Source: a virus. Taken from it: 59,774 nucleotides of DNA. The notes beneath the pieces were generated by a model. It was not told the DNA's origin. It did no database searches and was given only the letters and a program-made list of their open reading frames with translations. The first letter of the stretch is position 1; each line of letters starts with the position of its first letter. The translations under genes and the position numbers were made by a program. Positions 1 through 46,268 of the stretch are shown here, one piece after another. The DNA lies in the IMG/VR virus record IMGVR_UViG_3300024259_000034, one strand, 5' to 3'.

Positions 1-127
1 TTCCTCGTTTACGACATGACGGATAAACTCTGATCGGGATTTGAAAAGACCAGCAGCAACCAAACCGTCAATCTTCGAAACCCGATCAGCGTACATCTTC
101 AGATATTTCCTTTCCATGACTCTCCTT
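1..127. repeat. Terminal direct repeat, left copy (identical to 59648..59774); circular-closure or assembly overlap
   Basis: Bases 1-127 are letter-for-letter identical to 59648-59774. Positions 1-117 duplicate the 5' part of the RHH gene that starts at 59764. Confidence 0.95.
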
Positions 128-596
128 AGAAATTCGGCATCGTATCACTATCCACCATTGAATGATAATCAGTCCCGCCGATGATTATATGATCCAGCAC
201 CTGAATACCGACCAGATCACCAACCTGCCTCAACCTTTTCGTTATCTGGATGTCCTGGCCAGATGGCGCCGGATCTCCAGAAGGATGGCAGTGCAGTAAA
301 ACAATCGCTGCTGCTCTCTGTTTGATCGCTTCTGAAAACACTTCTCTCGGATGCACAAGACTCTGATTCAGCGTTCCTTTCGTGACCATAAGCTCATCCA
401 TTACCTTATGCTTATTGTCCAACAGGATCACCCAGAACTCCTCCTGCTTCACGTTTGGCCACTTCTCAGTGAACCGTTTGACGATATCCATCGAGGAAGT
501 CAACGTGGGCTCCTCGACTTTATCAGCCAATAACATTCTCAGCGTTTTGACTTCTTCCTTCAATCGTCGGTTCTCAGCTCTCAATCGTTTGCTCAT
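126..596 (-). CDS. radC: RadC-like JAB/MPN-domain protein
   Basis: 156-aa ORF with the C-terminal motif LLHCHPSGDPAPSGQD...ITKRL, typical of the RadC/JAMM family. Confidence 0.85.
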   Translation of the reverse strand: MSKRLRAENRRLKEEVKTLRMLLADKVEEPTLTSSMDIVKRFTEKWPNVKQEEFWVILLDNKHKVMDELMVTKGTLNQSLVHPREVFSEAIKQRAAAIVLLHCHPSGDPAPSGQDIQITKRLRQVGDLVGIQVLDHIIIGGTDYHSMVDSDTMPNF

Positions 597-828
597 TTTT
601 CACTCCCAATTGTCGTGTGATGCTCTTCATGATCCCGCTCGTTTCCAGATACTCTTTTATCCGGCCAGGAATCTCATCGTAACTGATACCAGTGGAAACC
701 TGCACTCCATCAACAAACAACATCCAATTATCAAAACCGTGGCTGTTTGTCGGGGCGATCCTGACTGAGAAATCAACGCCTTCAATATTTCGGCCATTGG
801 AACCTAAAAACATTCTGTCCTTTTTCAT
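574..828 (-). CDS. hypothetical protein
   Basis: 84-aa ORF with an ATGA overlap to the upstream gene, in the same-strand gene array. Confidence 0.5.
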   Translation of the reverse strand: MKKDRMFLGSNGRNIEGVDFSVRIAPTNSHGFDNWMLFVDGVQVSTGISYDEIPGRIKEYLETSGIMKSITRQLGVKNEQTIES

Positions 829-941
829 CTCTCCTCCTCATCGTAATAACTGGTTTCTTCCAAATCTTCAGATCCGCATGAAGGGCATTCGTGGGCATCT
901 GGATCTTCGATTATCTCTCCGCAGTTCAAACAGGTTTTCAT
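825..941 (-). CDS. small zinc-ribbon protein
   Basis: Start trimmed to MKTCLNCG..., behind the RBS GAGAGGAG. Carries CxxC...CxxC (CLNCG / CPSCG). Confidence 0.45.
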   Translation of the reverse strand: MKTCLNCGEIIEDPDAHECPSCGSEDLEETSYYDEEER

Positions 942-942
942 C

Positions 943-1302
943 TCAACTCCTCTCTTTGGCTTGATAGTAAACGGCTTTCGTCGGCAATGATGGTAACATT
1001 TCGATAACGCCATCTCTCAACGCTTCTTCAAAAAGCTCGGTGAAACCTTGCTCTGATCGGCCTAAACCTTTTTTCTTCATCCGTTCTTTATACTGAACAA
1101 AAGTCACTGGATTTCGGCAGATGTGCTTGATATGCTCTGTGACTTCTCGCTTCTCCCAATTCGCTTCAACCTGCTTCTGATGATCGATCCTCTTCTGGAT
1201 ATGCAGTTCCAGCTTCTCAACAACGTCCGGATGGGTGTTTTTGTTCACACCAATCTGCTCCAGTGTCTCCAGGGCAACGATCAGATTTGTTTTGGCTACC
1301 AT
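943..1302 (-). CDS. hypothetical protein (alternative leaderless start at 1335)
   Basis: The ATG at 1302 is preceded by AAGGAGAAAGA. An in-frame ATG at 1335 lies at the predicted start site of the upstream promoter repeat. Confidence 0.6.
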   Translation of the reverse strand: MVAKTNLIVALETLEQIGVNKNTHPDVVEKLELHIQKRIDHQKQVEANWEKREVTEHIKHICRNPVTFVQYKERMKKKGLGRSEQGFTELFEEALRDGVIEMLPSLPTKAVYYQAKERS

Positions 1303-1345
1303 TCTTTCTCCTTGATTTTTGGGTTTTTGTGTCATACCACTTTCA

Positions 1346-1362
1346 ATGCAGACGGTGTGCCA
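1346..1362 (-). promoter_or_regulatory. sigma-54-type -24/-12 promoter element, repeat copy 1
   Basis: Minus strand reads cTGGCACaccgtCTGCATtg, matching TGGCAC-N5-TTGCA with correct GG/GC spacing. It is part of a ~55-nt repeat (1316..1368) also present at 4231..4286 and 49226..49280. Confidence 0.55.
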
Positions 1363-1459
1363 GAAAAGCATAGACTCTAAGCGCAGTTTTATAAACACCT
1401 GACAGGCAGATCATATCAACTTCAATTAGATTCCGGCAGAATTTGCCGAGCAAAAAGTG

Positions 1460-1891
1460 TCAGAAGGAACCTTGATTGCCATACTTCATTTCGTGCTGCT
1501 TCTCCTTCTCAGCCTTTCTCCAAACACTCAGCTCCATTGTCTTGAATCCGTTCGATTCCAAAAGCTCTGCAACATTTCTTCTGTGACAGGTCGTAAAATT
1601 CCAGCATCCGCACATCAGAATAATATTCCGATCTCCTATTTGCTGAATCCGTTTTACTCCCTCAAGCGGATCTGCCAGGATTATCTCATCCCCCTGATAG
1701 TTCTTATTCCCGAAATACTTTCCTCCGGCTTTATATCTGTTCCCAAATTCCTTGATCAGACCAGATTGACCCCACTGTTTGTCCTTGCTCCAGGGACTGA
1801 ACCGGACATCGACAATAATCGCGTCCAGTTTCTCAACATCTTCCTTCAACTTCTCGATCTTTTGACCAGCGTACCCAAATGTATAAATCAT
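1460..1891 (-). CDS. DUF488-family protein
   Basis: MIYTFGYAGQ...IIVDVRFSPWSK resembles the DUF488 N-terminal signature. Confidence 0.6.
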   Translation of the reverse strand: MIYTFGYAGQKIEKLKEDVEKLDAIIVDVRFSPWSKDKQWGQSGLIKEFGNRYKAGGKYFGNKNYQGDEIILADPLEGVKRIQQIGDRNIILMCGCWNFTTCHRRNVAELLESNGFKTMELSVWRKAEKEKQHEMKYGNQGSF

Positions 1892-2238
1892 CTTTTCCCT
1901 CTTTGATTGTTGGAGTTAAACCGGACAAACCGTAGCTCATCCGGTCCGAGAATTGTTTTCTCTATTTCATGGCGCCTCCTATATTTGCAGGTTAAGAAAA
2001 ATGATATACTCATACTATTGCATTCAGTGTGCCTGTTCAACCACTTCTCAAAAATTATAATCGTAATATTCATGGCGACCGGCAGAGCAGTATCCGTGAG
2101 CATCTCAACAATCGAACCTTCATCGTCAGATCCGACAAAATTCTGTGCGCCCCAAGCTCCTAATGCCCACTGATCTGCAAAACGGATCTGTTGGAGTATT
2201 GTATTGGGTACAAACATTTTCTCAGCTTGTTCGGTCAT
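1888..2238 (-). CDS. hypothetical protein
   Basis: 116-aa ORF with an ATGA overlap to the downstream gene. Confidence 0.5.
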   Translation of the reverse strand: MTEQAEKMFVPNTILQQIRFADQWALGAWGAQNFVGSDDEGSIVEMLTDTALPVAMNITIIIFEKWLNRHTECNSMSISFFLTCKYRRRHEIEKTILGPDELRFVRFNSNNQRGKR

Positions 2239-2239
2239 T

Positions 2240-2539
2240 TTACCCTCCTATCGTCCGTATTCGGACCGCTAAATGATTTACAGTTTGCAGATCCTCGATG
2301 TCCGTCATTTCATGCGGATAATCGCGATCTACCCTGGAATGAACAATCTCTCCTCTTTTCGACTCCCTGAATCCGTCATCCAAAACATCCTTATGGTTTA
2401 CCTCGATATGCGCCCAATACTCATTATCACTAGTTCTGCAGACCGCAATCGACCCACCCGGGAACTTGATAATATGCTCCGCGGATTCCGGATTCTTCGG
2501 ATCCCCTTTAAGCAGGATCACTTTTGCTGTCGCTGACAT
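2240..2539 (-). CDS. hypothetical protein
   Basis: 99-aa ORF behind the RBS GAGAGGAGAGAG. Confidence 0.55.
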   Translation of the reverse strand: MSATAKVILLKGDPKNPESAEHIIKFPGGSIAVCRTSDNEYWAHIEVNHKDVLDDGFRESKRGEIVHSRVDRDYPHEMTDIEDLQTVNHLAVRIRTIGG

Positions 2540-2753
2540 CTCTCTCCTCTCTGGTTTTGACCATCCGTTTATACAAATGCTCCAGCCGTTCGATGTCTCT
2601 CTTTACTGATTCCTTCCGGACACCATTGACTCTGAGCGGTGAAATCGAGCTGCCATGCTCAAGCAGATCCCGATACTCTCTGATTTTCGCGTGAAGCATA
2701 CCGGCAATCAACATCCGGTCGTACTCGCTCAATCTAACGTGTTCAAATTCCAT
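2508..2753 (-). CDS. hypothetical protein
   Basis: 81-aa ORF in the same-strand array. Confidence 0.5.
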   Translation of the reverse strand: MEFEHVRLSEYDRMLIAGMLHAKIREYRDLLEHGSSISPLRVNGVRKESVKRDIERLEHLYKRMVKTREERDVSDSKSDPA

Positions 2754-2761
2754 GCTTCCTC

Positions 2762-3034
2762 CTAAATCATGGTTCTGTGATGTTCAGTCAGGGCCAAATG
2801 GCCATCGACTATTCCGTTCTCAAGCGTTCTGCCAGATTCCGTGTAAATCGCGCCTCTAAAGAAGAACACTCCAGCATGATTACTTTTCCATCCGGCTTCC
2901 AGGCCATCTTCTGTTATATAAACCCCGACTTCGCTGTAATTGCCTCCGCCGTGGCTCTTTCTGGTTTCAAGCTCAACATCCCTGACCGTTTTCTCGCCTG
3001 AGATGATCGCCTTTGTCAGTTCTTCGATTGTCAT
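2762..3034 (-). CDS. hypothetical protein
   Basis: 90-aa ORF in the same-strand array. Confidence 0.5.
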   Translation of the reverse strand: MTIEELTKAIISGEKTVRDVELETRKSHGGGNYSEVGVYITEDGLEAGWKSNHAGVFFFRGAIYTESGRTLENGIVDGHLALTEHHRTMI

Positions 3035-3225
3035 ATCGTAACCTGTTCAACGTCTTTCGCTGCTACTCTGACCAGCTTTTTCAGCTCTTCCAGTTTTTCC
3101 TTCAGTTCCATAAAATCGTCGCCAATCAAATGCCAGCCAAGACCTTGCAGCGTGTTGACATGCTCATCCCACCGTTCGACGTATTTCTTTTTGGCTTCTT
3201 CGCCAATCAATGTTTTCTCGCTCAT
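3031..3225 (-). CDS. hypothetical protein
   Basis: 64-aa ORF overlapping its upstream neighbour by 4 nt. Confidence 0.5.
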   Translation of the reverse strand: MSEKTLIGEEAKKKYVERWDEHVNTLQGLGWHLIGDDFMELKEKLEELKKLVRVAAKDVEQVTI

Positions 3226-3453
3226 CTATATCTCCTTTTTTGTCAGATGACTTAAAATGGCACTATCAACTTCCTTCTTTTCTTTCTGCGCTCTCAATCC
3301 TGCTATCAAAATCTCAGACAACGTATGCAGGTAATACTCGGACACGTTTCCGGCTTCAAAAAACGCTTTCCATTCATTGACCAGATCAACCGTGGTAAAA
3401 TCTTTGAAGTGCAATTTTCCTAACTCCTTCAGCAGTTCTGTTATCATTTTCAT
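3226..3453 (-). CDS. hypothetical protein
   Basis: 75-aa ORF that abuts the next gene. Confidence 0.5.
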   Translation of the reverse strand: MKMITELLKELGKLHFKDFTTVDLVNEWKAFFEAGNVSEYYLHTLSEILIAGLRAQKEKKEVDSAILSHLTKKEI

Positions 3454-3456
3454 CTC

Positions 3457-3903
3457 CTATTTTTTCCACCATTTTTTCTTAGCTTCTTCATACGCTTCAA
3501 GTTTCGCTTCTTCAGGCTGTACTTCTCTGAATGGCGTTGTGTCCCAATAATCCAGCAGTTCTGACAACACTCCAGCGAAATGATAACCGTGATGATCGCC
3601 TCTTCTGAAAAGTCCTCTGTTCATGACTTCTAAGTGAGCATATTCGTGCAGGAAAACTGAGACTGAATGACGATATAAGGTGAACCTGTTCTCATGTGGC
3701 CATGCGGTTCCCCATCTCTGCTTCGTTTCCATATTTGACAATTCAACTCTACATGGTTTCAGTTCAGGGTTCATCTTAAAAAAATCTTCAAGCATCCTTC
3801 TCGTGATCGGTTCGTTGTTCATTCTGATCAGCCTCGCTTTATCGGCAGGAGGCATGCAGGAGTGACCAGTTCCGGAGCTGTTCGTTCTTTCGAGTGTTTT
3901 CAT
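3457..3903 (-). CDS. putative zinc metallopeptidase-like protein (HExxH; SprT/DUF45-like)
   Basis: 148-aa ORF containing VFLHEYAHLEV (an HExxH motif). Confidence 0.45.
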   Translation of the reverse strand: MKTLERTNSSGTGHSCMPPADKARLIRMNNEPITRRMLEDFFKMNPELKPCRVELSNMETKQRWGTAWPHENRFTLYRHSVSVFLHEYAHLEVMNRGLFRRGDHHGYHFAGVLSELLDYWDTTPFREVQPEEAKLEAYEEAKKKWWKK

Positions 3904-3913
3904 CTCAGTTCTC

Positions 3914-4096
3914 CTAATTCAGTTTGAATTTTTCGTTGATTTCATAAAAATTTTTGGTGATCTCAATCATTCTCGTTCGCGCAGTTCCGTTTTTCTCTGC
4001 ATGGTCTTTATGGAATTTCATCGCTTCCTCTTCTGTCTCGGCTTTTATATTGCCACTGAAAGCATGATGAAAACACTGAATCGAGTAATATTTCAT
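3914..4096 (-). CDS. hypothetical protein
   Basis: 60-aa ORF in the same-strand array. Confidence 0.45.
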   Translation of the reverse strand: MKYYSIQCFHHAFSGNIKAETEEEAMKFHKDHAEKNGTARTRMIEITKNFYEINEKFKLN

Positions 4097-4097
4097 A

Positions 4098-4253
4098 TCA
4101 ACTCCTATTGTGCAGGTTCAGTTCAGCGTAATACATGGAGCCGTCAACCGGATTCCAGAATTTCCCATCTTCATATCTGAGGGCTGTCAAAACGAATTTT
4201 ACTTTTCCGATTAAGTTTCTCATGTTCGCCTTTTTTTGGGGTTTTTGTTTCAT
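4098..4253 (-). CDS. small hypothetical protein (51 aa), first gene after promoter repeat copy 2
   Basis: My own translation gives MKQKPQKKANMRNLIGKVKFVLTALRYEDGKFWNPVDGSMYYAELNLHNRS. It falls below the ORF-track length cut-off. Its ATG at 4253 is the conserved ATG of the repeat. Confidence 0.4.
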   Translation of the reverse strand: MKQKPQKKANMRNLIGKVKFVLTALRYEDGKFWNPVDGSMYYAELNLHNRS

Positions 4254-4263
4254 ACCCAATACA

Positions 4264-4280
4264 ATGCAGTAGGTGTGCCA
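4264..4280 (-). promoter_or_regulatory. sigma-54-type -24/-12 promoter element, repeat copy 2
   Basis: Minus strand reads cTGGCACacctaCTGCATtg, followed by the conserved GGTATGAAACAAAAACCCC. Confidence 0.55.
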
Positions 4281-4409
4281 GAAAACCCCATTAAAAAGAC
4301 ATAAAAATACCGTTGATATTATTGACTATTTACTGGCCAAAGCCTTAATAGCCTATCAACGGCGATGCTGCCTGATCATTTTTGCCGTGCTTAAACGGCA
4401 TATTTTGCC

Positions 4410-5930
4410 TTAAAGCGATCTAATCTTTATATCATCCCCGACTAACACATGCGTTCCTTTGCTGGCAGCGTCCAATCTGTCATCGTGCCGGCCTTTATCA
4501 AATTCCTCTGCTTCATCGAAGAACGTATTCCCATCGCACTTCTTATGCAACCATGCTCCCTTCAGGCAGTACACATTCCCTGTCTCAGCTTTGTTCGCTA
4601 ACCGATCCACATAAAAATGCTTCGCTCTGCCTGTCCGATATTCCTTCCTTGTGTACTTTCCCAACAGCTTCAGATAATAACTCGAAACGTGCTTTCCGGA
4701 AGCTCCTCCCTCTTCTTCCCAAACCTGCATCACATCGCCATATTGATCCTCGTCCATCTGAGCGGTATGGACAACCATATCCTCAACCGTTTTTGGCGTT
4801 CCCCTGATGGCGACCATATCACACAAATAAACATTCCCATCCAGGTATCCAACCAAAGCTCCTGCTGTGAAATCCGGATCGTTGGCAGTCTTTTTCTCAG
4901 TTCCAGCGAAATCCCAGAACCTGACAAAAGCCATGTCGTCAACATTGGGCAAAACATCGATCAGTTTGAACCATGCCCTGTTGATGATATTCCCGCCTTT
5001 CGGCTGTGGCCTCTGCTGATAAAGCGAGTACCAATCATACTTATTCGCTTTGAACTGTTGCAGGAATGACATCGGAAATCTGGCTGGCCATAGAGCATCG
5101 CCGATCTTCCTGGGATCATCCTTATGTTTCCATCTCCAGGCTTCATCATCCATCTCTGCCGACAAACAAAGCACATCCCATAAACCATCAGACATTTCGT
5201 TCCATTCCGGACAACCCTCAGACGGAACGTGGCCATTGTACGATCGAATACCGTCCTGCTCTAATATCTGGCCAGCGAGATCCTTCCGGTTCCATCTGGT
5301 GTTGGTCAGCATAATTCGAGAATCCAATTCATCTTGCCTGTTCAGGAACGTGCCGCCGTACCATTCAAAAGTCTTGGTCTGGCTGTTCTCGCTTTCTGCA
5401 TCCTCCCTCGATTTCACTGGATCATCGATATATCCCAAAGTGAAACCTTCTCCCATGATGGCGCCACCTATTCCGGAAGCCAGAAAACCGCCTTTATAAT
5501 CTCCACCAATCTCCCATTTGGCTTGCATATCAATCGCATTGCGAGTATCAATCTCAGCAAACTTCGGGAACACCTGAATATGATTCTTATCCCTGATGTT
5601 GGATTTGACATTTCTGGACGTTTTGCTGGCTCTCGATTCACCGTAGGCGCACGAAATTATCCGTTCGTCTGGATCATTACCAAACGCATACGACATGGCT
5701 CTCTCTGCTCCCTCGGTTTTCATATGCCGGGGAGGAGCAAAAACCATCAACCTCAATATCTTCTTTTGAATTACCCGCTGATAATAATCGGCGATCAGCT
5801 TATGATGCCAATTCGGGTTCTTGTAGGTCCGGAAGGTGTATCTGATGTAATCGTACAGTTTTTTCTTAGCGAGGATCCTCTGTGCTTCTCTCTTCTTCAG
5901 TTGGGATAACGCCTCATTTTTTGTCACCAT
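4410..5930 (-). CDS. terL: terminase large subunit
   Basis: ~507 aa. The N-terminal ATPase region (MVFAPPRHMKTEG) and C-terminal nuclease region look like the Terminase_6 type. The first ATG is at 5930; the ORF-track start at 5936 is a TTG. Confidence 0.85.
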   Translation of the reverse strand: MVTKNEALSQLKKREAQRILAKKKLYDYIRYTFRTYKNPNWHHKLIADYYQRVIQKKILRLMVFAPPRHMKTEGAERAMSYAFGNDPDERIISCAYGESRASKTSRNVKSNIRDKNHIQVFPKFAEIDTRNAIDMQAKWEIGGDYKGGFLASGIGGAIMGEGFTLGYIDDPVKSREDAESENSQTKTFEWYGGTFLNRQDELDSRIMLTNTRWNRKDLAGQILEQDGIRSYNGHVPSEGCPEWNEMSDGLWDVLCLSAEMDDEAWRWKHKDDPRKIGDALWPARFPMSFLQQFKANKYDWYSLYQQRPQPKGGNIINRAWFKLIDVLPNVDDMAFVRFWDFAGTEKKTANDPDFTAGALVGYLDGNVYLCDMVAIRGTPKTVEDMVVHTAQMDEDQYGDVMQVWEEEGGASGKHVSSYYLKLLGKYTRKEYRTGRAKHFYVDRLANKAETGNVYCLKGAWLHKKCDGNTFFDEAEEFDKGRHDDRLDAASKGTHVLVGDDIKIRSL

Positions 5931-32727: not shown

Positions 32728-35430
32728 TCAAGTTTTCTTCACTCTCATAATTGATTTCAGCCGATTCGCCTTCGATAAAGCGTCTGCGCTCTTCTCTTTC
32801 TGGCCATCTTCCTCATAATATTCGGCCAGCCTTCTCCATGCTACTTCATCGACTTTGAATTCTTCGACATAAATCTCTAACGCAGTGATCGCTTCATTCA
32901 ACAAACCAGCCTTATGATACAACCTTCCCAACGGCTTCAGGAAGAAATTGAACTCATCTGTCTTTGTCATGACCTCCTTGAAGATCACGAACGCTTTGTC
33001 GGTATCTCCAGTGCTGAGAAGGACAGTAGCATATTCCATTTTGTATTTAACCTCATCCGGAAACTGCTCAAGCAATTTGTCGTACATTTTCAGCGATTCT
33101 TTATCTCTTTTCACATGCCAGTATGCAGTCGCTAATCCCCACAGTGCCTCCGGTTTATCCGGTTTCAATTCATGGGCTTCCTCAAGCAATTTGACAGACT
33201 CCTCAAAACTCTTATCCTCTCTGCCTATTTTCTGGGACTCTTCGATTAGGTTCAGATACTTTATCATATCATCGCCTGTCTCCTTATCCCTTATTTCATA
33301 TTCTTTCTCTGCGTCGAGTATTGCCCTACCCCGCATTGCCAATGCTTCACTTTTAACCTCGATTGCACGGTCAATATCGCTGATACTAAAGTCTGTCAAT
33401 GGACGAGTATTCAAAACTTTCTTAGCATCCAGCAGCGGTCTGGCAAAATTCCCGGCATCAAAATAGGTTTGAGAATCCCGGAAGTGCAGTTCCTCAACCT
33501 CATACTGATGAGGGATTCCATTCTGCATTTTCTCCAGCGTTTTCAGCGTCTCCTCGTAAGTCTTTTTTAGGGACTTTGACACCTTTATCGCTTCCTCAAG
33601 GATCATCTTCGACCGATTCTGCCTGATCTTCAGATTCTTCTTTCCCTTTTTGGATAACAGAAATTCAGTATCTGACCTCACATTATGCGCTCTCAGTTCA
33701 ATTTCTCTGGACTTCTTGAATAGCCCCAACCTGACAAGCGGATTCTTATTCGCAGCTTTGTGTGCAGCATCAGTCAAGTCAAATGCCTCCTTCATTCTGA
33801 CAGCCAGTTCTGGCATAACAGCTTTAACCACTTCCTCTGACTTTGCTACTGCCTCTGCTGATTTCTCGATAATAAAATCCAGGTTATCAATATCTTCCTT
33901 CACCATCGGGATCGCCTGATCAACCAGATCATCTCCATCCGGTCGTTCTGTTAACAGCGGTTCAATCACAGTCTTATCAATCGGATCTCCCATATGCTCC
34001 TTTATCGCTTTTTTCAGGGACATCTGATCAATATGCTTCATCTTGGCTCCACCTTCCGTGGCATTAATCAAAGTCCTCTCATCTTTGTAACGTGCAAATA
34101 GATGCTCGAAATTCGTAATGAAGGTGAGCAGCCCAATATTGGTCATCACCAGATCACCATAATAGCCAGGAACATTTTGCATCAATCCCATGCTGTGATC
34201 CTGCGAGATCAGGCTTTTACTTCGTGGATCTTTCACGTTCCACCTGATTTCACCTTCCTTGGTTACACTAACATCTCCTCCGGAGTCAGCTTGCGCGATA
34301 TGGGACTTCTCTCCGTCGTATGCTAAATCCTGACCGATGATAATAATCGGATCGCAACCCATAGCAATCGCAGTTCCGAATATCATGTGAGAAACCGAAC
34401 CACCCTGATCGAGCGAACCTCTATCCTGCGTCAATCCGAATACCGTTCCTTCAGTGCCAGGATTCCATGAAACTGTAACAAATTTTGGTCCCTGCCATTC
34501 CTTCAAAAGCGGGGCATAAGATCGGTTCAAAGCAATCAGCGGAACGTCGCTATCCATCAGGCCCAGATAATGAGAATGATTCACTATCCCGAAATCGACT
34601 GAGCAAATGAAATCCGGACGGATATCGTAAGACAGCAAAACTCTCAGTGCCTGTCCAACCGCGATAATGACGAATCTCTTCTGAACCTCTTTGTCCATCA
34701 GCAAATGGATATTCTTAAACAGGGACGGACCAGTGCTGACCAGGATTGCCGGCTTCTTCTCAAATAGGTTTTGCAGCTCTGCAACTCCTCTGTGCTTTAT
34801 AACGTATGGCAGTGTCGCCATGTCATTATCAGCGATCTGTCCTCCAGCACTTTCGACTGTTCCGGTATTGCATTTCAACTGCGATATGGTGTCCAAAGCC
34901 ATCTTCGTGATGTCATAATAAACATCCTGCATTCTCGTGTAATCCTCACGGAAAACAAACTGCTGCTCAAGCATTTTGCTTTGCTCCATCCTCGACAGGA
35001 TATAGATCACATCCTCAATCGTTGGAGTGAAGATCAACCGATGCTCTTTGATGTGCTTATCGAATTTGCTCAGACTGAGCCCTTCTTTAATAATCCCGGC
35101 AACTGGCTCAATCACTATCACCTTATGTTGTTTGTCGCACTTCTTCAGAATCTCATAGGTCAGATACCCACAACCGAATCCAATAACAATCGAGATTGAA
35201 TTCTTGTGGAAATCCGAAATCTTCGCGATCCCTCGTGGAATCTCCTTCGGGTTGCTCATATCGTAAACAGATATCGGAGCTTGAGAAGTCTGGACAATCA
35301 TATTGCTGATCCCTTTCTCGTTCCGATGGACTTTGTACCAATCAACTGGCTCCTGCTTTTCGATCCAGGCATGTTGTTCCGGAACAGTTTCCTTAATCGC
35401 CCTCATATTGATCAACAGCTTTTTCGTCAT
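32728..35430 (-). CDS. maf: Maf-type (motility-associated factor, DUF115/MAF_flag10) nonulosonic-acid protein glycosyltransferase with C-terminal TPR repeats
   Basis: 900 aa. Core motifs: KKPAILVSTGPSLFKN...IIAVGQALRVLLSYDIRPDFICSVDFG...GGSVSHMIFGTAIAMGCDPIIIIGQDLAY...NATEGGAKM. The C-terminal ~200 aa are TPR-like. ATGA overlap with the upstream GNAT gene. Confidence 0.75.
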   Translation of the reverse strand: MTKKLLINMRAIKETVPEQHAWIEKQEPVDWYKVHRNEKGISNMIVQTSQAPISVYDMSNPKEIPRGIAKISDFHKNSISIVIGFGCGYLTYEILKKCDKQHKVIVIEPVAGIIKEGLSLSKFDKHIKEHRLIFTPTIEDVIYILSRMEQSKMLEQQFVFREDYTRMQDVYYDITKMALDTISQLKCNTGTVESAGGQIADNDMATLPYVIKHRGVAELQNLFEKKPAILVSTGPSLFKNIHLLMDKEVQKRFVIIAVGQALRVLLSYDIRPDFICSVDFGIVNHSHYLGLMDSDVPLIALNRSYAPLLKEWQGPKFVTVSWNPGTEGTVFGLTQDRGSLDQGGSVSHMIFGTAIAMGCDPIIIIGQDLAYDGEKSHIAQADSGGDVSVTKEGEIRWNVKDPRSKSLISQDHSMGLMQNVPGYYGDLVMTNIGLLTFITNFEHLFARYKDERTLINATEGGAKMKHIDQMSLKKAIKEHMGDPIDKTVIEPLLTERPDGDDLVDQAIPMVKEDIDNLDFIIEKSAEAVAKSEEVVKAVMPELAVRMKEAFDLTDAAHKAANKNPLVRLGLFKKSREIELRAHNVRSDTEFLLSKKGKKNLKIRQNRSKMILEEAIKVSKSLKKTYEETLKTLEKMQNGIPHQYEVEELHFRDSQTYFDAGNFARPLLDAKKVLNTRPLTDFSISDIDRAIEVKSEALAMRGRAILDAEKEYEIRDKETGDDMIKYLNLIEESQKIGREDKSFEESVKLLEEAHELKPDKPEALWGLATAYWHVKRDKESLKMYDKLLEQFPDEVKYKMEYATVLLSTGDTDKAFVIFKEVMTKTDEFNFFLKPLGRLYHKAGLLNEAITALEIYVEEFKVDEVAWRRLAEYYEEDGQKEKSADALSKANRLKSIMRVKKT

Positions 35431-35984
35431 AACAACTCCTCCGGTATCATTCCATGCAGTTTGTACCATCTTCTCTCAAGGATGGCGTATCGGTAAACGT
35501 CCTCAAAATGACCGTCCAAAAATACTTCCTGTTTCAGGACTCCTTCTCTCAACATTCCGACCTTCTCAGCAACTTTGGCCATACCCTTATTGCCTTTGGC
35601 AGTCCCAAGCCAGATTTTGTTCAGGCCGAGCTTATAGAATCCATGGTAAAAAAGCAGTCTAATAGCAGCAGTAGCCAGTCCTTTTGCCCAATATTGTTTA
35701 TCGAATATACAGGTAAATTCAGCACTCCGATTTAACCATGAGATGTCCTGTAACATCACTGAACCAGCTAATGATGGCCTTGCTGGAGTTATTTTCCAGA
35801 CCGACCATAGAATATTCCCTTTTGGGTCCGCTTTCTCAAACCTGATTTTCGAGAACAGTCCATGAGAATTGTACTTGCAAATCTCCTGATCGAAAAACCA
35901 AATCTCGCTCATCTCTCTGGCGATATCATCCATTGGCCGGATTTGAACATCCTCGGTTTCGTAGATTACGATTTCTTCAGCCAT
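35427..35984 (-). CDS. GNAT N-acetyltransferase (PseH/RimL-like)
   Basis: 185 aa with YWAKGLATAAIRLLFYHGF, the acetyl-CoA binding motif A. Confidence 0.7.
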   Translation of the reverse strand: MAEEIVIYETEDVQIRPMDDIAREMSEIWFFDQEICKYNSHGLFSKIRFEKADPKGNILWSVWKITPARPSLAGSVMLQDISWLNRSAEFTCIFDKQYWAKGLATAAIRLLFYHGFYKLGLNKIWLGTAKGNKGMAKVAEKVGMLREGVLKQEVFLDGHFEDVYRYAILERRWYKLHGMIPEELL

Positions 35985-36204
35985 CTATCATCTCATGAAA
36001 TTTTAACTCGAATGGAATCTTTTGCCCATGTCGCTTCCGCATTTGCTGTCCAATTAATTCTTCAGCACCTTTATCGAGAATCAAATCTCTTTCAAACATC
36101 TCTACCAAGCAGTCAACCAAGACTTCGGGAGTTATTCTCTCATCTTCATCTCCACCACAATGCTTTTCCCAAATGTACCTTATGATCGGTTCAACCTCGC
36201 TCAT
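35977..36204 (-). CDS. hypothetical protein
   Basis: 75-aa ORF within the operon. Confidence 0.45.
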   Translation of the reverse strand: MSEVEPIIRYIWEKHCGGDEDERITPEVLVDCLVEMFERDLILDKGAEELIGQQMRKRHGQKIPFELKFHEMIDG

Positions 36205-36404
36205 AATTTCTCCGGTGTTTCATCCAAACAAATAACCTTAAACAAATCACGTTCCCAATTTCTCAACTGGATAGTGACCTCTTTCAGCTTATCCTTATCA
36301 ATTACACTTGAGCTATCAGCCACTATATCACGGAGCAAATTCAAAGCTGCAGACACCTTTACCCTATCAGAGACATCGGTATATTCCTGCTCCGTCATAC
36401 TCAT
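36201..36404 (-). CDS. hypothetical protein
   Basis: 67-aa ORF within the operon. Confidence 0.45.
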   Translation of the reverse strand: MSMTEQEYTDVSDRVKVSAALNLLRDIVADSSSVIDKDKLKEVTIQLRNWERDLFKVICLDETPEKL

Positions 36405-37345
36405 AATTCCTCCAGCATTTTTCCTAATTCGTCACGAGTCAATTGCCACGGATTGTTTCCTGATCCAAAAGTCCAACGATGCTCAGTTGGAGTGCTGGCT
36501 TTCCGTATCGTAAAATGTTTCATACGTTTATCCGTATAAATACTCTCCTCCTCTGTAATTAGGAACTCGTGCAACTTCTCTTGACCACGCAGACCTATGT
36601 ATTTTATCTCCGCCTCCGGAGCAATAAATTTCGCGATGTCCATCACTGACAAAGATGGCATATTGGGAACGTAAATCTCACCGCCTTTCATGTCCTCTAT
36701 CCTGTCACAAATAAATGCAGCGACTTCCTTCACCGTTATCCAGAATCGAGTCATCTTCGGGTCAGTCACTGTCAAAATGCCGAATTGCGCTTGTCTCCTG
36801 AATAGCTCAATCACAGATCCATTTGAACCAAACACATTTCCATATCGAATGCACGAGAATCTTGGGTCCCTCCCTCCCGAATAAGTGTTGGCCGTAATCA
36901 TCAGATCCTCGGCACACTTCTTCGTCGCCCCATATAGCGTAGTTGGATAAACGGCTTTATCGGTGCTGATCTGCACGACTTTTTCAACCACATTCCGGAC
37001 AGCAGCGTACACAATATTCTCAGCTCCACCAACATTCGTTTCGATACACTCCAGAGGATTCTCTTCGGCGGTATCAATTCTCTTGATCGCCGCGCAGTGG
37101 ATAATAATATCTGTGCCGATCGATGCCATGATAACTCGCTCTCGATCTCTGACATCTCCGATCAGGTAGGCAATATTTTCCGTGTATCCTTCCTCAGTCA
37201 ATTGCGCTCTCAACTCTGCCTGTTTATGCTCAGACCGACTGAAGATCCGTATTCCTCGTGGTTTGTACTTGTGCATGATCGTTCTTACCAGCATACTCCC
37301 TAAAGTGCCGGTTCCTCCAGTAATCAGAATCTCTTTACCGTTCAT
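36401..37345 (-). CDS. UDP-GlcNAc 4,6-dehydratase, PseB/FlaA1/SpsM-like (short CapD type)
   Basis: ILITGGTGTLGS Rossmann motif, SRSEHKQ, ISTDKAVYPTTLYGATK (YxxxK). Confidence 0.75.
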   Translation of the reverse strand: MNGKEILITGGTGTLGSMLVRTIMHKYKPRGIRIFSRSEHKQAELRAQLTEEGYTENIAYLIGDVRDRERVIMASIGTDIIIHCAAIKRIDTAEENPLECIETNVGGAENIVYAAVRNVVEKVVQISTDKAVYPTTLYGATKKCAEDLMITANTYSGGRDPRFSCIRYGNVFGSNGSVIELFRRQAQFGILTVTDPKMTRFWITVKEVAAFICDRIEDMKGGEIYVPNMPSLSVMDIAKFIAPEAEIKYIGLRGQEKLHEFLITEEESIYTDKRMKHFTIRKASTPTEHRWTFGSGNNPWQLTRDELGKMLEEL

Positions 37346-37557
37346 TCAATCCTCGCTGTAATTGTCCCAAATTTTGTCTTTTTTTGATCGATGTACTTCC
37401 GATAAAACGAACACTCAAACCAATCTGTCATCTTATCTCGATAGCAATACGGACCCATTTGTTTCCAGCATTTAGTGCAAAAAACCGCAGCTCTGTATCC
37501 TTTCTTGATTTCAGAGACAGTGACCGCAGCAAACCTATGCTCACAGTCATCCTTCAT
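37342..37557 (-). CDS. small Cys-rich hypothetical protein
   Basis: 71-aa ORF within the operon. Confidence 0.45.
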   Translation of the reverse strand: MKDDCEHRFAAVTVSEIKKGYRAAVFCTKCWKQMGPYCYRDKMTDWFECSFYRKYIDQKKTKFGTITARIE

Positions 37558-38386
37558 TGATTACCTTTCTACCTCTCAATCCGGTACCGGGATCGGCTTT
37601 CAAATACCGCTCAGTTTGCTGCTTCCTGATAATATCGAAATTGGGTGTTCCCCATGCCTCTTCTTGAACCCTGATACCAGTAATCGCACTCTCTAAAAAT
37701 GAAGCAGACCAGCAATGACCATGTACCGATTCCGCTCCTTTGTTGTCATCAAGATCAAAATGCGCCTCGATATATTCTGCTCCGGCTGCGACTGCTCCAT
37801 AAATCACATTCCTGTTTTTTGTATGATCAGACCAGCCCATTTTAAAACAATCTGGATATCGTTGACAAAAATCCTCAATCACCGCCAGATTGCATTCTTT
37901 TACTGCTGCAGGATACTTGGAAACACAGTGCATAATCGTCAGATCGATCTCATCTTCCTGAATCTCAGCCAACATTTCGAACAACTCTGTTTCATCCATC
38001 AGACCGATTGAAACAAACAGTGGTTTTTTGATCACCAATGCAGTTCTGTATAACTCAACCAGACCGGCTTCATGACTGGCTATCTTCAAGAAATCTGAAT
38101 ACTGATGATACATCGACATCCACGTTGGATCAAAAAACGAATATCCAATATTGATATGCTTCGCTATGGCATATTGTTTCATCACCGGGAGCCAGTGGGG
38201 TTTCAACTGTCTCTCCTCTGCCTGTCGATAATTCGGATGTGAGTATTCATAAAGCTGGTTGGCAGTGTAAAGCTGAAACTTCACTCCCCAACATCCAATA
38301 TCTTTCGCGACACTGATCAGATTCAGCGCACGGTCTAACTCTCCGTTGTGGTTGCTTCCCACTTCGGCAATAAATCTCGTTTCCAT
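37547..38386 (-). CDS. NeuB-family nonulosonic acid synthase (PseI/LegI/SpsE-like), no SAF domain
   Basis: FIAEVGSNHNGELDRALNLISVAKDIGCWGVKFQ. At 279 aa it is a TIM barrel only. Confidence 0.75.
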   Translation of the reverse strand: METRFIAEVGSNHNGELDRALNLISVAKDIGCWGVKFQLYTANQLYEYSHPNYRQAEERQLKPHWLPVMKQYAIAKHINIGYSFFDPTWMSMYHQYSDFLKIASHEAGLVELYRTALVIKKPLFVSIGLMDETELFEMLAEIQEDEIDLTIMHCVSKYPAAVKECNLAVIEDFCQRYPDCFKMGWSDHTKNRNVIYGAVAAGAEYIEAHFDLDDNKGAESVHGHCWSASFLESAITGIRVQEEAWGTPNFDIIRKQQTERYLKADPGTGLRGRKVINEG

Positions 38387-38883
38387 TCTTTCCTCGTTAT
38401 CGACGCTACATGGCTACTGTAGAACGTCTTGTTTTTCCAGAATCGATCAGTCAAGAAACCTTCATGGCGGAAACCCTGCTTTTTCCAGAATTTCCAGTTC
38501 TGTGTGGTGGCAATGACCTCGATAAAAATACAGTTCAGATTCGCGAGATTGAATCCGACCTCAAGCAATTTCCTGACAGCCTGTGTTCCATATCCCTGCT
38601 TCTGATAATCCGGTTTTACCAATAAACCCATCTCAGCAGTTCGATTCACAGCATCAATTTTATCAAGACCGCAGTAACCGATAAAATTAAACAACTTGAA
38701 TTCATTCCCATCATAAATGAAATAATACCGCTCCCGGTCTGACATATTCTTCACCCATTGCTCCTGACCCCAACCTTTTGCAGTCAGATCATCAGCTCTC
38801 AAGGAAAGCATCGATTCATTCCGCCATTGAGCGATCAGATCCAGTTCCGGCTGTTTGACTGTCATCTTCTCCAGCTTGATCAT
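38335..38883 (-). CDS. GNAT N-acetyltransferase
   Basis: 182 aa with YQKQGYGTQAVRKLLEVGF (motif A). Confidence 0.7.
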   Translation of the reverse strand: MIKLEKMTVKQPELDLIAQWRNESMLSLRADDLTAKGWGQEQWVKNMSDRERYYFIYDGNEFKLFNFIGYCGLDKIDAVNRTAEMGLLVKPDYQKQGYGTQAVRKLLEVGFNLANLNCIFIEVIATTQNWKFWKKQGFRHEGFLTDRFWKNKTFYSSHVASITRKEWKRDLLPKWEATTTES

Positions 38884-40202: not shown

Positions 40203-40212
40203 GCCATTCTCC

Positions 40213-41148: not shown

Positions 41149-41149
41149 T

Positions 41150-41500: not shown

Positions 41501-41518
41501 CTTTAAACTCCTTCAATT

Positions 41519-41902: not shown

Positions 41903-41936
41903 CTTTTCGTCAAGACTCCTTCAACTACTTTCATCA

Positions 41937-44024: not shown

Positions 44025-44067
44025 TTTATGTCTCCTGTACTATTTATAAACGATCTAAAAATTAAGT

Positions 44068-44452: not shown

Positions 44453-44453
44453 T

Positions 44454-44953: not shown

Positions 44954-44970
44954 CTTCTCTCCTGTTGAAC

Positions 44971-45100: not shown

Positions 45101-45108
45101 GCATCTGG

Positions 45109-45411: not shown

Positions 45412-45442
45412 TGTTTCTCCTGTTAAATAAGTAGAATTATAA

Positions 45443-46236: not shown

Positions 46237-46268
46237 AATCCCCCGTTGTAGTTATAGTTTAGTTGTAG

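What the first reader, a model, noticed from the sequence alone, without database searches (positions are those of the whole stretch)
1316..1368. Three copies of a ~55-nt repeat carrying a sigma-54-type -24/-12 promoter and a conserved start-site-proximal AUG
The minus-strand copies at 1316..1368, 4231..4286 and 49226..49280 align as TTTTCTGGCACACC(GT/TA)CTGCATTG-N5-GGTATGA(C/A)(A/T)AAAAACC(C)AAAAA. TGGCAC-N5-CTGCA fits the RpoN consensus TGGCAC-N5-TTGCA, with GG and GC at the correct spacing.

The conserved ATG lies 12-13 nt downstream of the -12 GC, which is at the expected transcription start. In all three copies that ATG is in frame and stop-free with the next annotated start, 33, 30 and 39 nt further on. 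It would add basic N-termini (MTQKPKNQGER-, MKQKPQKKAN-, MTKKTKNSKKGFK-). This suggests leaderless mRNAs.

I recognise no AAA+ enhancer-binding protein in the genome, so activation would need a host or novel factor. Alternatively, the motif serves a different polymerase-recognition system.
Basis: partly seen in the sequence, partly recalled or inferred. Interest (0 to 1): 0.65.

Follow-up and report, generated by a model that had tools for sequence, protein, structure and literature searches.

The report
Phage promoters wired to host sigma-54
An uncultured tailed phage carries three near-canonical sigma-54 promoter cassettes, each with an upstream palindrome matching the binding site of the flagellar activator FlbD, so blocks of its accessory genes may be switched on by the host's flagellum-assembly regulator.

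Summary
The repeat is real. There are three 57-nt minus-strand copies (1316-1372, 4234-4290, 49228-49284), 81-84% alike. All are intergenic, and each heads a block of genes that are mostly ORFans.

Their cores (CTGGCACACCGTCTGCA and variants) are the three best matches in the whole genome to a matrix built from 42 E. coli sigma-54 sites. They score 19.2, 17.1 and 14.2 bits; about 0.1 hits of 17.1 bits or more are expected by chance.

Each promoter has a CGGCA-N5-TGCCG palindrome 105-149 nt upstream of the predicted start. Only four such sites exist in the genome. The motif equals the published FlbD "ftr" enhancer consensus (CCCGGCA-N5-TGCCGGG).

Two unrelated viral contigs show the same layout of tandem palindromes followed by a sigma-54 promoter.

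No activator, sigma factor or RNA polymerase was detected in the phage by Pfam.

The predicted start is the T just 5' of the conserved ATG, so leaderless mRNA is possible. It is unproven, because a Shine-Dalgarno-led ATG lies 30-39 nt downstream.

Copies 2 and 3 also form a hairpin of unknown role. No close relatives or strain variants were available, and the host is unknown (probably an alphaproteobacterium).

The parts
1316..1372 (-). Repeat copy P1 (promoter plus start of leader)
   Evidence: family D2 reference copy; sequence
1347..1363 (-). P1 sigma-54 core CTGGCACACCGTCTGCA (GG 1361-1360, GC 1349-1348); predicted start T1336
   Evidence: Scores 17.1 bits, above 28 of 42 E. coli sites. 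It is 15/17 identical to the E. coli glnK site CTGGCACACCGCTTGCA. The start is predicted as motif centre + 19, the rule used in PMC4591121.
1434..1448 (.). P1 upstream palindrome CGGCA-N5-TGCCG (perfect), centre at -105
1300..1335 (-). P1 leader or N-terminal extension: conserved ATG 1335-1333, AAGGAG 1313-1308, downstream ATG 1302-1300
   Evidence: Sequence. Shine-Dalgarno duplex energy is -8.5 kcal/mol for the downstream ATG and -0.4 for the upstream ATG. Most gene callers start at 1302.
4234..4290 (-). Repeat copy P2
   Evidence: sequence
4265..4281 (-). P2 sigma-54 core CTGGCACACCTACTGCA; predicted start T4254; conserved ATG 4253-4251; downstream ATG 4223-4221
   Evidence: Scores 19.2 bits, the best hit in the genome and above 38 of 42 E. 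coli sites. The downstream Shine-Dalgarno sequence is weak at -3.2 kcal/mol.
4396..4410 (.). P2 upstream palindrome (AGGCAAAATATGCCG on the minus strand, 1 mismatch), centre at -149, directly after the terminase stop codon
49228..49284 (-). Repeat copy P3
   Evidence: sequence
49259..49275 (-). P3 sigma-54 core ATGGCATACCGTCTGCA; predicted start T49248; conserved ATG 49247-49245; downstream ATG 49208-49206
   Evidence: Scores 14.2 bits, the third-best hit in the genome. The downstream Shine-Dalgarno sequence is weak at -3.2 kcal/mol.
49359..49373 (.). P3 upstream palindrome; with flanks it reads CCCGGAATCAATTGCCGGGG on the minus strand (13/14 to the quoted FlbD ftr consensus), centre at -118
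49382..49396 (.). Second, weaker palindrome upstream of P3 (GGGAACAATATGCCG, 2 mismatches), centre at -141, 23 bp from the first
32728..49247 (-). Inferred P3 transcription unit: small ORFan genes, then pseudaminic-acid-type sugar genes and a Maf/MptE-TPR glycosyltransferase. It ends before a sigma-70-like promoter at 32587-32560.
   Evidence: Gene content; sigma-70-like site. The extent of the unit is inferred, not shown.
1460..4253 (-). Inferred P2 transcription unit: ten small genes, nine with no family match in Pfam or PHROGs, plus a DUF488 protein
126..1335 (-). Inferred P1 transcription unit: an ORFan with no homologues, a small gene and RadC. It continues across the circular junction into a CopG-like repressor gene (59764-59480).
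   Evidence: junction

Best explanation
The three repeats are enhancer-dependent sigma-54 (RpoN) promoters on a phage genome. Each unit has three parts. First, an upstream palindrome CGGCA-N5-TGCCG lies 105-149 bp before the start. Second comes a -24/-12 core, TGGCA(C/T)-N5-CTGCA. Third, the start region has T/A just before a conserved ATG, followed by an A-rich, unstructured leader.

Host RNA polymerase with sigma-54 would sit on the core as a closed complex. Firing would require a host AAA+ enhancer-binding protein bound at the palindrome and looped to the promoter. The palindrome equals the published binding consensus of FlbD, the sigma-54 activator of late flagellar genes. The most likely activator is therefore a FlbD-type flagellar regulator.

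This would tie three blocks of phage accessory genes to the host's flagellum-assembly state. One of these blocks leads to a flagellin-type sugar-modification cluster.

What is shown: the motifs, their scores, positions and statistics. What is inferred: sigma-54 use, the start site, FlbD as the activator, the extent of each operon, and which ATG is translated.
For: 1. **Core scores.** The cores score 19.2, 17.1 and 14.2 bits on a matrix from 42 E. coli intergenic sigma-54 sites (range 8.8-21.1, median 16.5). They are the top three hits in the genome on both strands. About 0.07-0.1 hits of 17.1 bits or more are expected per genome. No hit of 17.1 bits or more occurs in 433 kb of other phage and prophage loci.
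2. **Pattern of variation.** The four variable columns of the 17-mer (positions 1, 7, 11, 12) all fall in low-information positions. By my calculation from the matrix, the chance of this is about 0.03.
3. **Position.** All three sites are intergenic and co-oriented with the genes. The predicted start is 31-40 nt from a Shine-Dalgarno-led ATG, within the 18-90 nt range seen for E. coli sites.
4. **Upstream palindrome.** Only four sites in the genome match CGGCA-N5-TGCCG with at most 1 mismatch. One lies 80-124 nt upstream of the GG of each promoter. Random placement gives this with probability of about 2e-7. An unbiased search for any shared palindrome succeeded in 1 of 3000 random window triples.
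5. **Match to a known activator site.** The palindrome equals the C. crescentus FlbD consensus CCCGGCAxxxxxTGCCGGG as quoted in PMC3333781. FlbD is a sigma-54 activator of flagellar genes.
6. **Independent viral contigs.** L055 and L056 (GC 55%) share no protein with the window except a 24%-identical terminase. They carry 2-3 tandem perfect palindromes 40-92 nt upstream of CTGGCACGGCGATTGCA, scored at 17.2 or 17.8 bits depending on the background composition used, in an intergenic region.
7. **No phage alternative.** No phage sigma factor, RNA polymerase or AAA+ activator was found.
8. **Host clues.** The capsid's relatives in reference genomes are mostly Alphaproteobacteria, the group in which FlbD/FliX is described.
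9. **Precedent.** Promoter-trap fragments with a '-24/-12 consensus' are annotated in Pseudomonas phage YuA.
Against: - There is no experimental data, and the host is unknown, so the presence of rpoN and flbD cannot be checked.
- No related genome could be used to test conservation. All metagenomic copies of the phage are 100% identical. The one structural relative obtained (L050, capsid 64% identical) shows no sigma-54-like site in its 21-kb structural region. Its accessory regions could not be reached.
- The FlbD consensus is quoted second-hand, and the primary papers were not held.
- P2's palindrome matches only 9 of 14 positions of the extended consensus.
- Palindrome-to-promoter distances differ (80, 93 and 124 bp from palindrome centre to GG) and are not strictly in helical phase.
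- In L055 and L056 the same palindrome also occurs in clusters away from any sigma-54 site. That would fit a phage-encoded binding protein as well.
- The replication initiator resembles those of Firmicutes phages, so an alphaproteobacterial host is not secure.
- The conserved blocks downstream of -12 are not explained by sigma-54 recognition.
- The finding was picked from many windows, so a look-elsewhere effect applies to the core match. It does not apply to the palindrome, which was found afterwards.
Confidence: 0.7

Rival explanations
1. The repeat and the palindrome are sites for a phage-specific regulatory system, and the likeness to sigma-54 promoters is coincidental. One version is an operator for a dimeric phage repressor or activator, such as the CopG-like or Cro-like protein. 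Another is a middle or late promoter read by sigma-70 RNA polymerase modified by an unrecognised phage factor.
For: - Copies 2 and 3 are inverted repeats: the arms GGGGTTTT/AAAACCCC and CAYACC/GGTATG bracket the core. This is typical of operators.
- In L055 and L056 the CGGCA-N5-TGCCG palindrome also occurs in clusters with no sigma-54 site, and once over the start region.
- Phage YuA has nine conserved promoters thought to need a phage factor.
- The P1 unit ends in a CopG-like repressor gene.
Against: - The chance that a 57-nt repeat contains a sigma-54 site of 17.1 bits or more is about 5e-5.
- The invariant TGGCA and CTGCATTG blocks lie in loops of the predicted hairpin rather than in its stems, so pairing does not explain them.
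- Copy 1 has no inverted repeat.
- The palindrome equals a known sigma-54 activator site and sits at enhancer distance.
- No phage sigma-like protein was found.
Confidence: 0.13
2. The element works mainly as RNA. In transcripts reading through from upstream genes it forms a roughly 50-nt hairpin. This could be an RNase III-type processing or stabilising site, or a structure that hides the first AUG. It would be comparable to the repeated intercistronic hairpins of T7.
For: - Copy 2 folds at -19.3 kcal/mol (z = -2.7) and copy 3 at -18.2 kcal/mol (z = -4.75), each with about 19-20 base pairs interrupted by internal loops.
- Some spacer and N5 positions change together.
- No convincing sigma-70 promoter lies just upstream, so read-through is the likely source of any RNA containing the hairpin.
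Against: - Copy 1 does not fold better than shuffled sequence (-6.9 kcal/mol, z = +0.6).
- There is no U-run after the hairpin on either strand.
- The consensus structure is weak (-5.5 kcal/mol).
- There is no Rfam match.
- This reading does not explain the upstream palindromes or the sigma-54 scores. It could coexist with promoter function.
Confidence: 0.07
3. The repeat is chiefly a translation-start element. It would be a start-associated sequence that gives the first gene of each block a conserved Lys-rich N-terminus (M-T/K-Q/K-K-P/T-K/Q..), with transcription coming from elsewhere.
For: - The ATG is invariant and in frame in all three copies, and the spacing differs by multiples of three (33, 30, 39 nt).
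- Gene callers chose the upstream ATG for the P2 and P3 genes.
- The downstream Shine-Dalgarno sequences of P2 and P3 are weak.
Against: - The upstream ATG has no Shine-Dalgarno sequence (duplex energy -0.4 to +0.9 kcal/mol). In a genome with heavy Shine-Dalgarno use it could start translation only on a leaderless RNA, which again requires a start site exactly there.
- The nucleotide alignment needs 1-2-nt indels (CCC, CCCC, CC), so codons are not conserved.
- The P1 protein has no homologues against which to test N-terminal conservation.
- Most of the conserved length lies upstream of the ATG.
Confidence: 0.05
4. The copies are neutral remnants of recent duplication or recombination (cassette-shuffling scars) and have no present function.
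For: - There are only three copies at about 82% identity.
- They flank ORFan blocks, as in the hyperplastic regions of T4-type phages (my own knowledge of that literature; not checked here).
Against: - Variation avoids every high-information sigma-54 position.
- Each copy keeps the same position relative to a gene start and an upstream palindrome that lies outside the repeat.
- Similarity stops sharply at the repeat borders.
Confidence: 0.05

Closest known systems
Caulobacter crescentus class III/IV flagellar promoters (sigma-54 promoter plus ftr enhancer bound by FlbD, often with an IHF site between them)
   Same: - The palindrome matches the consensus CCCGGCA-N5-TGCCGGG (13/14 at P3, 12/14 at P1).
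- It lies roughly 100-150 bp from a -24/-12 promoter.
- No cognate kinase is needed on the element itself.
- A weak IHF-like TATCAA lies between the palindrome and the core in P2 and P3.
   Different: - The element sits on a phage genome.
- It drives ORFan blocks and a sugar-modification cluster, not flagellar structural genes.
- The -24 element is TGGCAC. Caulobacter's own is TGGCCC, from my memory and not checked here.
- The host is unknown and FlbD binding is untested.
- The IHF match is imperfect.
Enterobacterial sigma-54 promoters (for example E. coli glnK, norV, glmY)
   Same: - The core sequence and GG/GC spacing match.
- P1 is 15/17 identical to the glnK site.
- CTGCA at -12 occurs in 6 of 42 E. 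coli sites, including the strongest, glmY.
- Leader length to the Shine-Dalgarno-led start is typical.
   Different: - The enhancer motif is different.
- There is an ATG at +2.
- The core is bracketed by an inverted repeat in two of the three copies.
Pseudomonas phage YuA '-24/-12 consensus' promoters (Ceyssens et al. 2008, as annotated in NC_010116 and cited in PMC10914365)
   Same: Three sigma-54-type promoters are annotated on a phage that encodes no activator of its own. Activity was shown by promoter trap, and one sigma-54-like start site was seen by ONT-cappable-seq.
   Different: - The YuA fragments score only 5.2, -5.5 and 3.5 bits on the same matrix, against 14-19 bits here.
- They lie in the structural (late) region.
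- They are not copies of one repeat.
- No enhancer has been described for them.
T4-type PeSL cassettes (promoter-early stem-loop repeats between ORFan genes)
   Same: A short repeated cassette combines a promoter with a stem-loop, sits in front of blocks of small ORFan genes, and could act as a substrate for modular shuffling.
   Different: PeSLs carry sigma-70 early promoters and a terminator-like stem-loop downstream. Here the core is sigma-54-like and the inverted repeat brackets it. This comparison rests on my own knowledge and was not tested here.
Leaderless mRNAs such as lambda cI from PRM
   Same: A 5'-terminal AUG with no Shine-Dalgarno sequence, predicted at or 1 nt from the start site. 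AUG is the required codon.
   Different: No start site has been mapped. A Shine-Dalgarno-led in-frame AUG follows 30-39 nt later. None of the 42 intergenic E. coli sites lies closer than 18 nt to a protein-coding start.

Membership tests
Sigma-54 (RpoN) -24/-12 promoter | GG and GC doublets exactly 10 bp apart within TGGCAC-N5-TTGCW | tested here: met
   All three copies: TGGCAC/TGGCAT-N5-CTGCA
Sigma-54 (RpoN) -24/-12 promoter | Matrix score within the range of experimentally bound sites and above genome background | tested here: met
   Scores are 19.2, 17.1 and 14.2 bits against an E. coli range of 8.8-21.1. These are the top three hits in the genome, and 0.07-0.1 hits of 17.1 bits or more are expected by chance.
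Sigma-54 (RpoN) -24/-12 promoter | Intergenic, oriented towards a downstream gene at a plausible leader distance | tested here: met
   leaders are 31-40 nt to the Shine-Dalgarno-led ATG
Sigma-54 (RpoN) -24/-12 promoter | Upstream enhancer (inverted repeat about 80-150 bp upstream) for an AAA+ activator | tested here: met
   CGGCA-N5-TGCCG lies at -105, -149 and -118 (also -141). Three of the only four such sites in the genome are these. That an activator binds them is inferred.
Sigma-54 (RpoN) -24/-12 promoter | Transcription depends on rpoN and on ATP hydrolysis by an enhancer-binding protein; the start maps 11-13 nt after the GC doublet | not testable with these tools
   The host is unknown and no transcript data are available.
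Sigma-54 (RpoN) -24/-12 promoter | The host encodes sigma-54 | not testable with these tools
   The host was not identified. Structural genes point to Pseudomonadota, mainly Alphaproteobacteria. The replication gene points to Firmicutes phages.
Sigma-54 (RpoN) -24/-12 promoter | Conservation of the element in related genomes | tested here: inconclusive
   No syntenic relative covering these regions could be fetched. Strain copies are identical. Two unrelated viral contigs share the architecture.
FlbD/ftr-type flagellar enhancer | Palindrome CCCGGCA-N5-TGCCGGG | tested here: met
   P3 matches 13/14, P1 12/14 and P2 9/14 positions of the consensus quoted in PMC3333781.
FlbD/ftr-type flagellar enhancer | Bound by FlbD; activity gated by FliX and flagellar assembly | not testable with these tools
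   Requires the host or purified protein.
FlbD/ftr-type flagellar enhancer | IHF site between the enhancer and the promoter | tested here: inconclusive
   TATCAA-N4-AT lies at about -64 (P2) and -59 (P3), with one and two mismatches to WATCAANNNNTTR. P1 has no clear site (and my reading).
Leaderless mRNA | Transcript 5' end at, or within about 1 nt of, an AUG that has no Shine-Dalgarno sequence | tested here: inconclusive
   The predicted start is 1 nt 5' of the ATG. The upstream ATG has no Shine-Dalgarno sequence. No start site has been mapped.
Leaderless mRNA | The AUG opens the functional reading frame (N-terminus conserved in homologues or detected) | tested here: inconclusive
   The ATG is in frame in all three copies. 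However, downstream Shine-Dalgarno-led ATGs exist. The P1 gene product was searched and has no homologues. The P2 and P3 products returned only their own 90%-identity clusters in an exact look-up.
Intrinsic terminator | GC-rich hairpin followed by a U-run | tested here: not met
   There is no U-run after the hairpin on either strand.
Known RNA family (Rfam) | Covariance-model match | tested here: not met
   No match at the gathering threshold in the whole window. No match with E up to 1 in 44900-51350, which contains only copy P3. P1 and P2 were not searched at the permissive threshold.

The most novel reading that the evidence does not exclude
A phage plugs three of its operons directly into the host's flagellum-assembly checkpoint. 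It carries FlbD-type ftr enhancers in front of sigma-54 promoters, so blocks of accessory genes fire only when the host's flagellar activator is active. One block leads to a complete flagellin-type pseudaminic-acid and Maf glycosylation module.

The transcripts would begin at the AUG and be leaderless. In read-through transcripts the bracketing hairpin would hide that AUG, so the promoter used would decide which protein isoform is made.

The same enhancer-promoter module in unrelated viral contigs would make this a recurrent phage strategy.
Probability: 0.25. Interest if true: 0.8.

Novelty: new variant of a known kind. Interest (0 to 1): 0.62.

Why it matters
Sigma-54 promoters are silent until a specific ATP-driven activator fires them. 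A phage that carries them without its own activator hands the timing of those genes to a host signalling pathway.

If the activator is FlbD, phage accessory genes and a flagellin-type glycosylation cluster would be expressed only in cells that are building a flagellum. That would be a direct link between phage gene expression and host motility or cell-cycle state. To my knowledge no such link has been described; the literature searches here did not look for it specifically.

The cassettes are compact, near-consensus and testable in vitro with standard sigma-54 reagents. They also offer a way to predict the host, because the host must have rpoN and an activator that recognises CGGCA-N5-TGCCG. 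A sigma-54 start at an AUG would in addition be an unusual case of leaderless translation.

Tried and rejected
**Relatives and host**
- Close relatives were sought by DNA and by proteins. There was no blastn match in cultured phages or plasmids.
- The extended motif was absent from IMG/VR.
- In JGI metagenomes it hit only the same phage plus three unrelated GC-richer contigs.
- Terminase relatives (up to 58% identity) and DUF2303 relatives sit in non-syntenic mosaics with no such motif.
- The best structural relative (L050) could be read only around its capsid.
- Capsid-based loci from reference genomes gave host hints but no motif.
- Strain microdiversity was checked and all copies are 100% identical.
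- Sample accessions were not found in the literature.

**N-terminus of the first genes**
- Homologues of the P1 gene product were sought to test its N-terminus. None exist.
- Gene-caller starts were looked up and disagree with each other.

**Alternative mechanisms**
- A phage sigma factor, RNA polymerase or AAA+ activator was sought. None was found by Pfam over the whole proteome. PHROGs was run on 30 of the roughly 110 proteins and gave nothing relevant.
- Sigma-70 promoters were sought just upstream of the repeats. None was convincing.
- There was no intrinsic terminator and no Rfam family.
- ECF-type, sigma-28, sigma-32 and sigma-E consensus sequences were considered by eye and do not fit.
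- A 13-bp internal palindrome within the core is not kept in copy 2.

**Comparisons and literature**
- The YuA precedent was scored with the same matrix and matches poorly.
- The primary FlbD/ftr papers and the Barrios 1999 compilation were not held.
Full report
**Context**

The window is a roughly 59.65-kb genome of an uncultured tailed phage. Its ends overlap by 127 nt. All genes lie on the minus strand. It has an HK97-type capsid, a Mu-like contractile tail and baseplate, a portal and a large terminase. The same phage, 100% identical, occurs in many metagenome assemblies. Sibling assemblies carry an extra 185 nt at the junction.

**The observation**

The repeat finder returns one family of three 57-nt copies at 1316-1372, 4234-4290 and 49228-49284, with 81% and 84% identity to the first. 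All three are on the coding strand in intergenic gaps of 135-183 nt. Similarity stops at the repeat borders. No further copy exists.

**Is the core a sigma-54 promoter?**

I built a matrix from the 42 intergenic, gene-oriented E. coli sigma-54 ChIP-seq sites of Bonocora et al. (PMC4591121).

- The three cores score 19.2 (P2), 17.1 (P1) and 14.2 (P3) bits.
- These are the three best hits in the genome on either strand. They fall inside the range of the E. coli sites (8.8-21.1, median 16.5).
- The exact score distribution gives 0.07-0.1 expected hits of 17.1 bits or more per genome. The chance that a 57-nt repeat holds one is about 5e-5.
- P1 differs at only 2 of 17 positions from the E. coli glnK site. 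CTGCA at -12 occurs in six of the 42 E. coli sites, including glmY and norV.
- The four columns that vary among the copies are positions 1, 7, 11 and 12, all of low information. None of the nine high-information positions varies. By my calculation this has a chance of about 0.03.

With the rule used in that paper (start = motif centre + 19), the predicted starts are T1336, T4254 and T49248. Each is the base just before the conserved ATG.

A search for shared words in the 190 nt upstream of the repeats found a 14-mer shared beyond all 60 shuffles. This resolved into the palindrome CGGCA-N5-TGCCG.

- The whole genome has four matches with at most one mismatch: 1434-1448, 4396-4410, 49359-49373 and 53410-53424.
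- Three of them lie 80, 124 and 93 nt (palindrome centre) upstream of the GG of P1, P2 and P3. That places them at -105, -149 and -118 from the predicted starts.
- P3 has a second, weaker site at -141.
- Random placement of four sites gives one per promoter with probability of about 2e-7.
- The motif was derived from these regions, so I also ran an unbiased test. It looked for any 5-N(3-8)-5 palindrome that is perfect in one window and has at most 1 mismatch in the other two. It finds only CGGCA-N5 in the real windows, and succeeds in 1 of 3000 random triples of windows from the same genome.

**Which activator?**

The phage has no Sigma54_activat domain, no sigma factor and no RNA polymerase by Pfam. 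The activator should therefore come from the host.

The palindrome equals the Caulobacter crescentus FlbD binding consensus as quoted by Rajeev et al. (PMC3333781): "CCCGGCAxxxxxTGCCGGG". The Desulfovibrio FlbD homologue DVU1063 binds GGCAxxxxTGCC. With flanks, P3 reads CCCGGAATCAATTGCCGGGG (13/14), P1 reads CTCGGCAAATTCTGCCGGA (12/14), and P2 matches 9/14.

FlbD is the sigma-54 activator of late flagellar genes. It is controlled by FliX and flagellar assembly rather than by a kinase, and it is described in polarly flagellated alphaproteobacteria.

Two further observations fit this reading:
- The capsid's relatives in reference genomes are mostly alphaproteobacterial. Its best cultured relatives are Azospirillum and Bradyrhizobium phages.
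- The block of genes after P3 runs into a pseudaminic-acid-type pathway: PseB-like, DegT aminotransferase, GNAT, NeuB and a cytidylyltransferase. It ends with a 913-aa Maf/MptE-like protein with TPR repeats. From my own knowledge, this gene set is the one bacteria use to glycosylate flagellin.

I regard FlbD as the best candidate (about 45%), not as shown.

**Independent occurrence**

A scan of IMG/VR for a perfect palindrome followed 65-126 nt later by TGGCAC-N5-YTGCA gave eight contigs, about the number expected by chance (my estimate: roughly 3 per scan, two scans).

- Five of the hits lie inside long open frames, and a sixth (L062) is ambiguous.
- Two hits (L055, L056) are intergenic. They carry three and two tandem perfect palindromes with A/T-rich spacers 40-92 nt upstream of CTGGCACGGCGATTGCA, scored at 17.2 or 17.8 bits depending on the background composition used. 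They also have a one-mismatch site over the start region.
- These contigs have 55% GC and share no protein with the window except a 24%-identical terminase.
- They also have palindrome clusters elsewhere with no sigma-54 site. This keeps open the possibility that a phage protein binds the motif.

**The start codon question**

- The ATG at +2 has no Shine-Dalgarno sequence (duplex energy -0.4 to +0.9 kcal/mol). The genome median is -6.8.
- The downstream ATG has a strong Shine-Dalgarno sequence in P1 (-8.5) and weak ones in P2 and P3 (-3.2, in the bottom 18%).
- The RNA from the predicted start is unstructured.
- Gene callers disagree. They chose the short form for P1 and the long forms for P2 and P3.
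- The P1 protein has no homologues.

Leaders of 31-40 nt are ordinary for sigma-54 promoters. An in-frame ATG is also the only harmless arrangement if the ATG is kept for another reason. I put leaderless use at roughly one in three.

**A hairpin**

Copies 2 and 3 fold into a hairpin of about 50 nt, with energies of -19.3 kcal/mol (z = -2.7) and -18.2 kcal/mol (z = -4.75). The arms GGGGTTTT/AAAACCCC and CAYACC/GGTATG bracket the core. Copy 1 does not fold this way.

This accounts for the conserved GGTATG and AAAAACC blocks as partners of upstream bases. The invariant TGGCA and CTGCATTG sit in loops, which fits protein recognition. No U-run follows the hairpin, so it is not a terminator. Its role is unexplained. 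It may hide the first AUG in read-through transcripts, or it may be an operator.

**Genome logic**

Sigma-70-like promoters precede three modules:
- the recombination module (59470-59443);
- the regulator and replication module (an AT-rich gap at 55774-55634);
- the structural module (32587-32560, 10 of 12 consensus positions).

The sigma-54-like cassettes instead head blocks of small genes that mostly have no family match.

**What is known**

Sigma-54 promoters with upstream enhancers are textbook knowledge. Phage use is rare but has precedent. The Pseudomonas phage YuA record annotates three promoter-trap fragments as "-24/-12 consensus", and a sigma-54-like start site was seen by ONT-cappable-seq. 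Those fragments score at most 5.2 bits on my matrix.

Three features appear new here: near-consensus cores, repeated as a cassette, with an identifiable FlbD-type enhancer.

**Limits**

There is no host, no transcripts and no diverged relatives. The FlbD consensus is second-hand. The first-stage selection adds a look-elsewhere effect to the core match.

**Verdict**

The sigma-54 reading is supported and extended. The leaderless reading remains open.

Noticed in passing
32728-44024 (minus strand): A phage-encoded nonulosonic-acid (pseudaminic-acid-type) pathway. It comprises a cytidylyltransferase (43290-44024), an oxidoreductase (41937-42884), a DegT aminotransferase (38880-40202), a GNAT (38335-38883), NeuB (37547-38386), a PseB-like dehydratase (36401-37345), a second GNAT (35427-35984), and a 913-aa Maf/MptE-like protein with C-terminal TPR repeats (32728-35469). 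The Maf-like protein has no match in 50,697 cultured-phage records.
   Followed up: partly
8570-8639 (minus strand): A tRNA-like element in the gap before the Dam-like/GNAT gene. It scores 27.8 bits on the Rfam tRNA model, just under the 29-bit threshold. The acceptor stem has mismatches and the anticodon arm is odd. ARAGORN does not call it.
   Followed up: partly
44945-45010, 51128-51195, 46625-46695 (minus strand): A second three-copy repeat, GCAGGT(A)TC(A/G)AATCCTG(C/T)C..GC(A/G)GTTCAA. It resembles a tRNA T-arm plus 3' end and lies 8-20 nt before the Shine-Dalgarno sequence and ATG of three genes. There is no Rfam match and folding is not significant ([D6], 50, 68, 93, 94).
   Followed up: partly
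1-127 = 59648-59774; junction near 112/59774: The 127-nt terminal overlap indicates a circular assembly. Sibling assemblies of the same phage carry 185 extra nt here, encoding a 63-aa gene between RadC and the CopG-like gene. The window therefore lacks that segment.
   Followed up: yes
7196-8554 and 6748-7203 (minus strand): A 452-aa protein with phage 'DNA adenine methylase-like domain 1' and 'GNAT-phage-like' domains sits next to a ParB_N-domain protein, just upstream of the terminase genes. This may be a DNA-modification module.
   Followed up: no
53410-53424 and 53067-53083 (minus strand): The fourth CGGCA-N5-TGCCG site in the genome lies about 330 nt upstream of the fourth-best sigma-54 matrix hit (TTGGCCCAAAGGATGCA, 12.6 bits). 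Both are inside a probable coding region, and their significance is unclear.
   Followed up: partly
L055 2269-2376 and 4361-4498; L056 4356-4644 and 6640-6713: Two IMG/VR contigs hold clusters of perfect CCGGCAAnnnTTGCCGG palindromes. One cluster in each lies before a high-scoring sigma-54 site (17.2-17.8 bits). Another lies in a region with 25-nt iteron-like repeats, which might be an origin or a partition site.
   Followed up: partly
L016 (Ga0302298_10016577), ATG at 835 on the reverse strand: An unrelated GC-rich metagenome contig has TGGCACGCGACCTGCATTG-N5-GGTATG. The ATG opens a 324-aa reading frame that looks to me like an IS5-family transposase; no family search was run on it. The E. 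coli table also lists a sigma-54 site upstream of IS5 insH.
   Followed up: no
L054 (Pseudomonas phage YuA, NC_010116) 38392-38570, 40888-41035, 47152-47312: The three fragments annotated 'high activity, -24/-12 consensus sequence' contain no good match to the E. coli sigma-54 matrix (best scores 5.2, -5.5 and 3.5 bits).
   Followed up: yes
54505-55440 (minus strand): The replication initiator (Lin1244_N/DnaD-like) is most similar to those of Firmicutes phages (Paenibacillus, Listeria, Bacillus). The capsid and tail resemble those of Proteobacteria phages. The genome is a cross-phylum mosaic, which clouds host assignment.
   Followed up: partly
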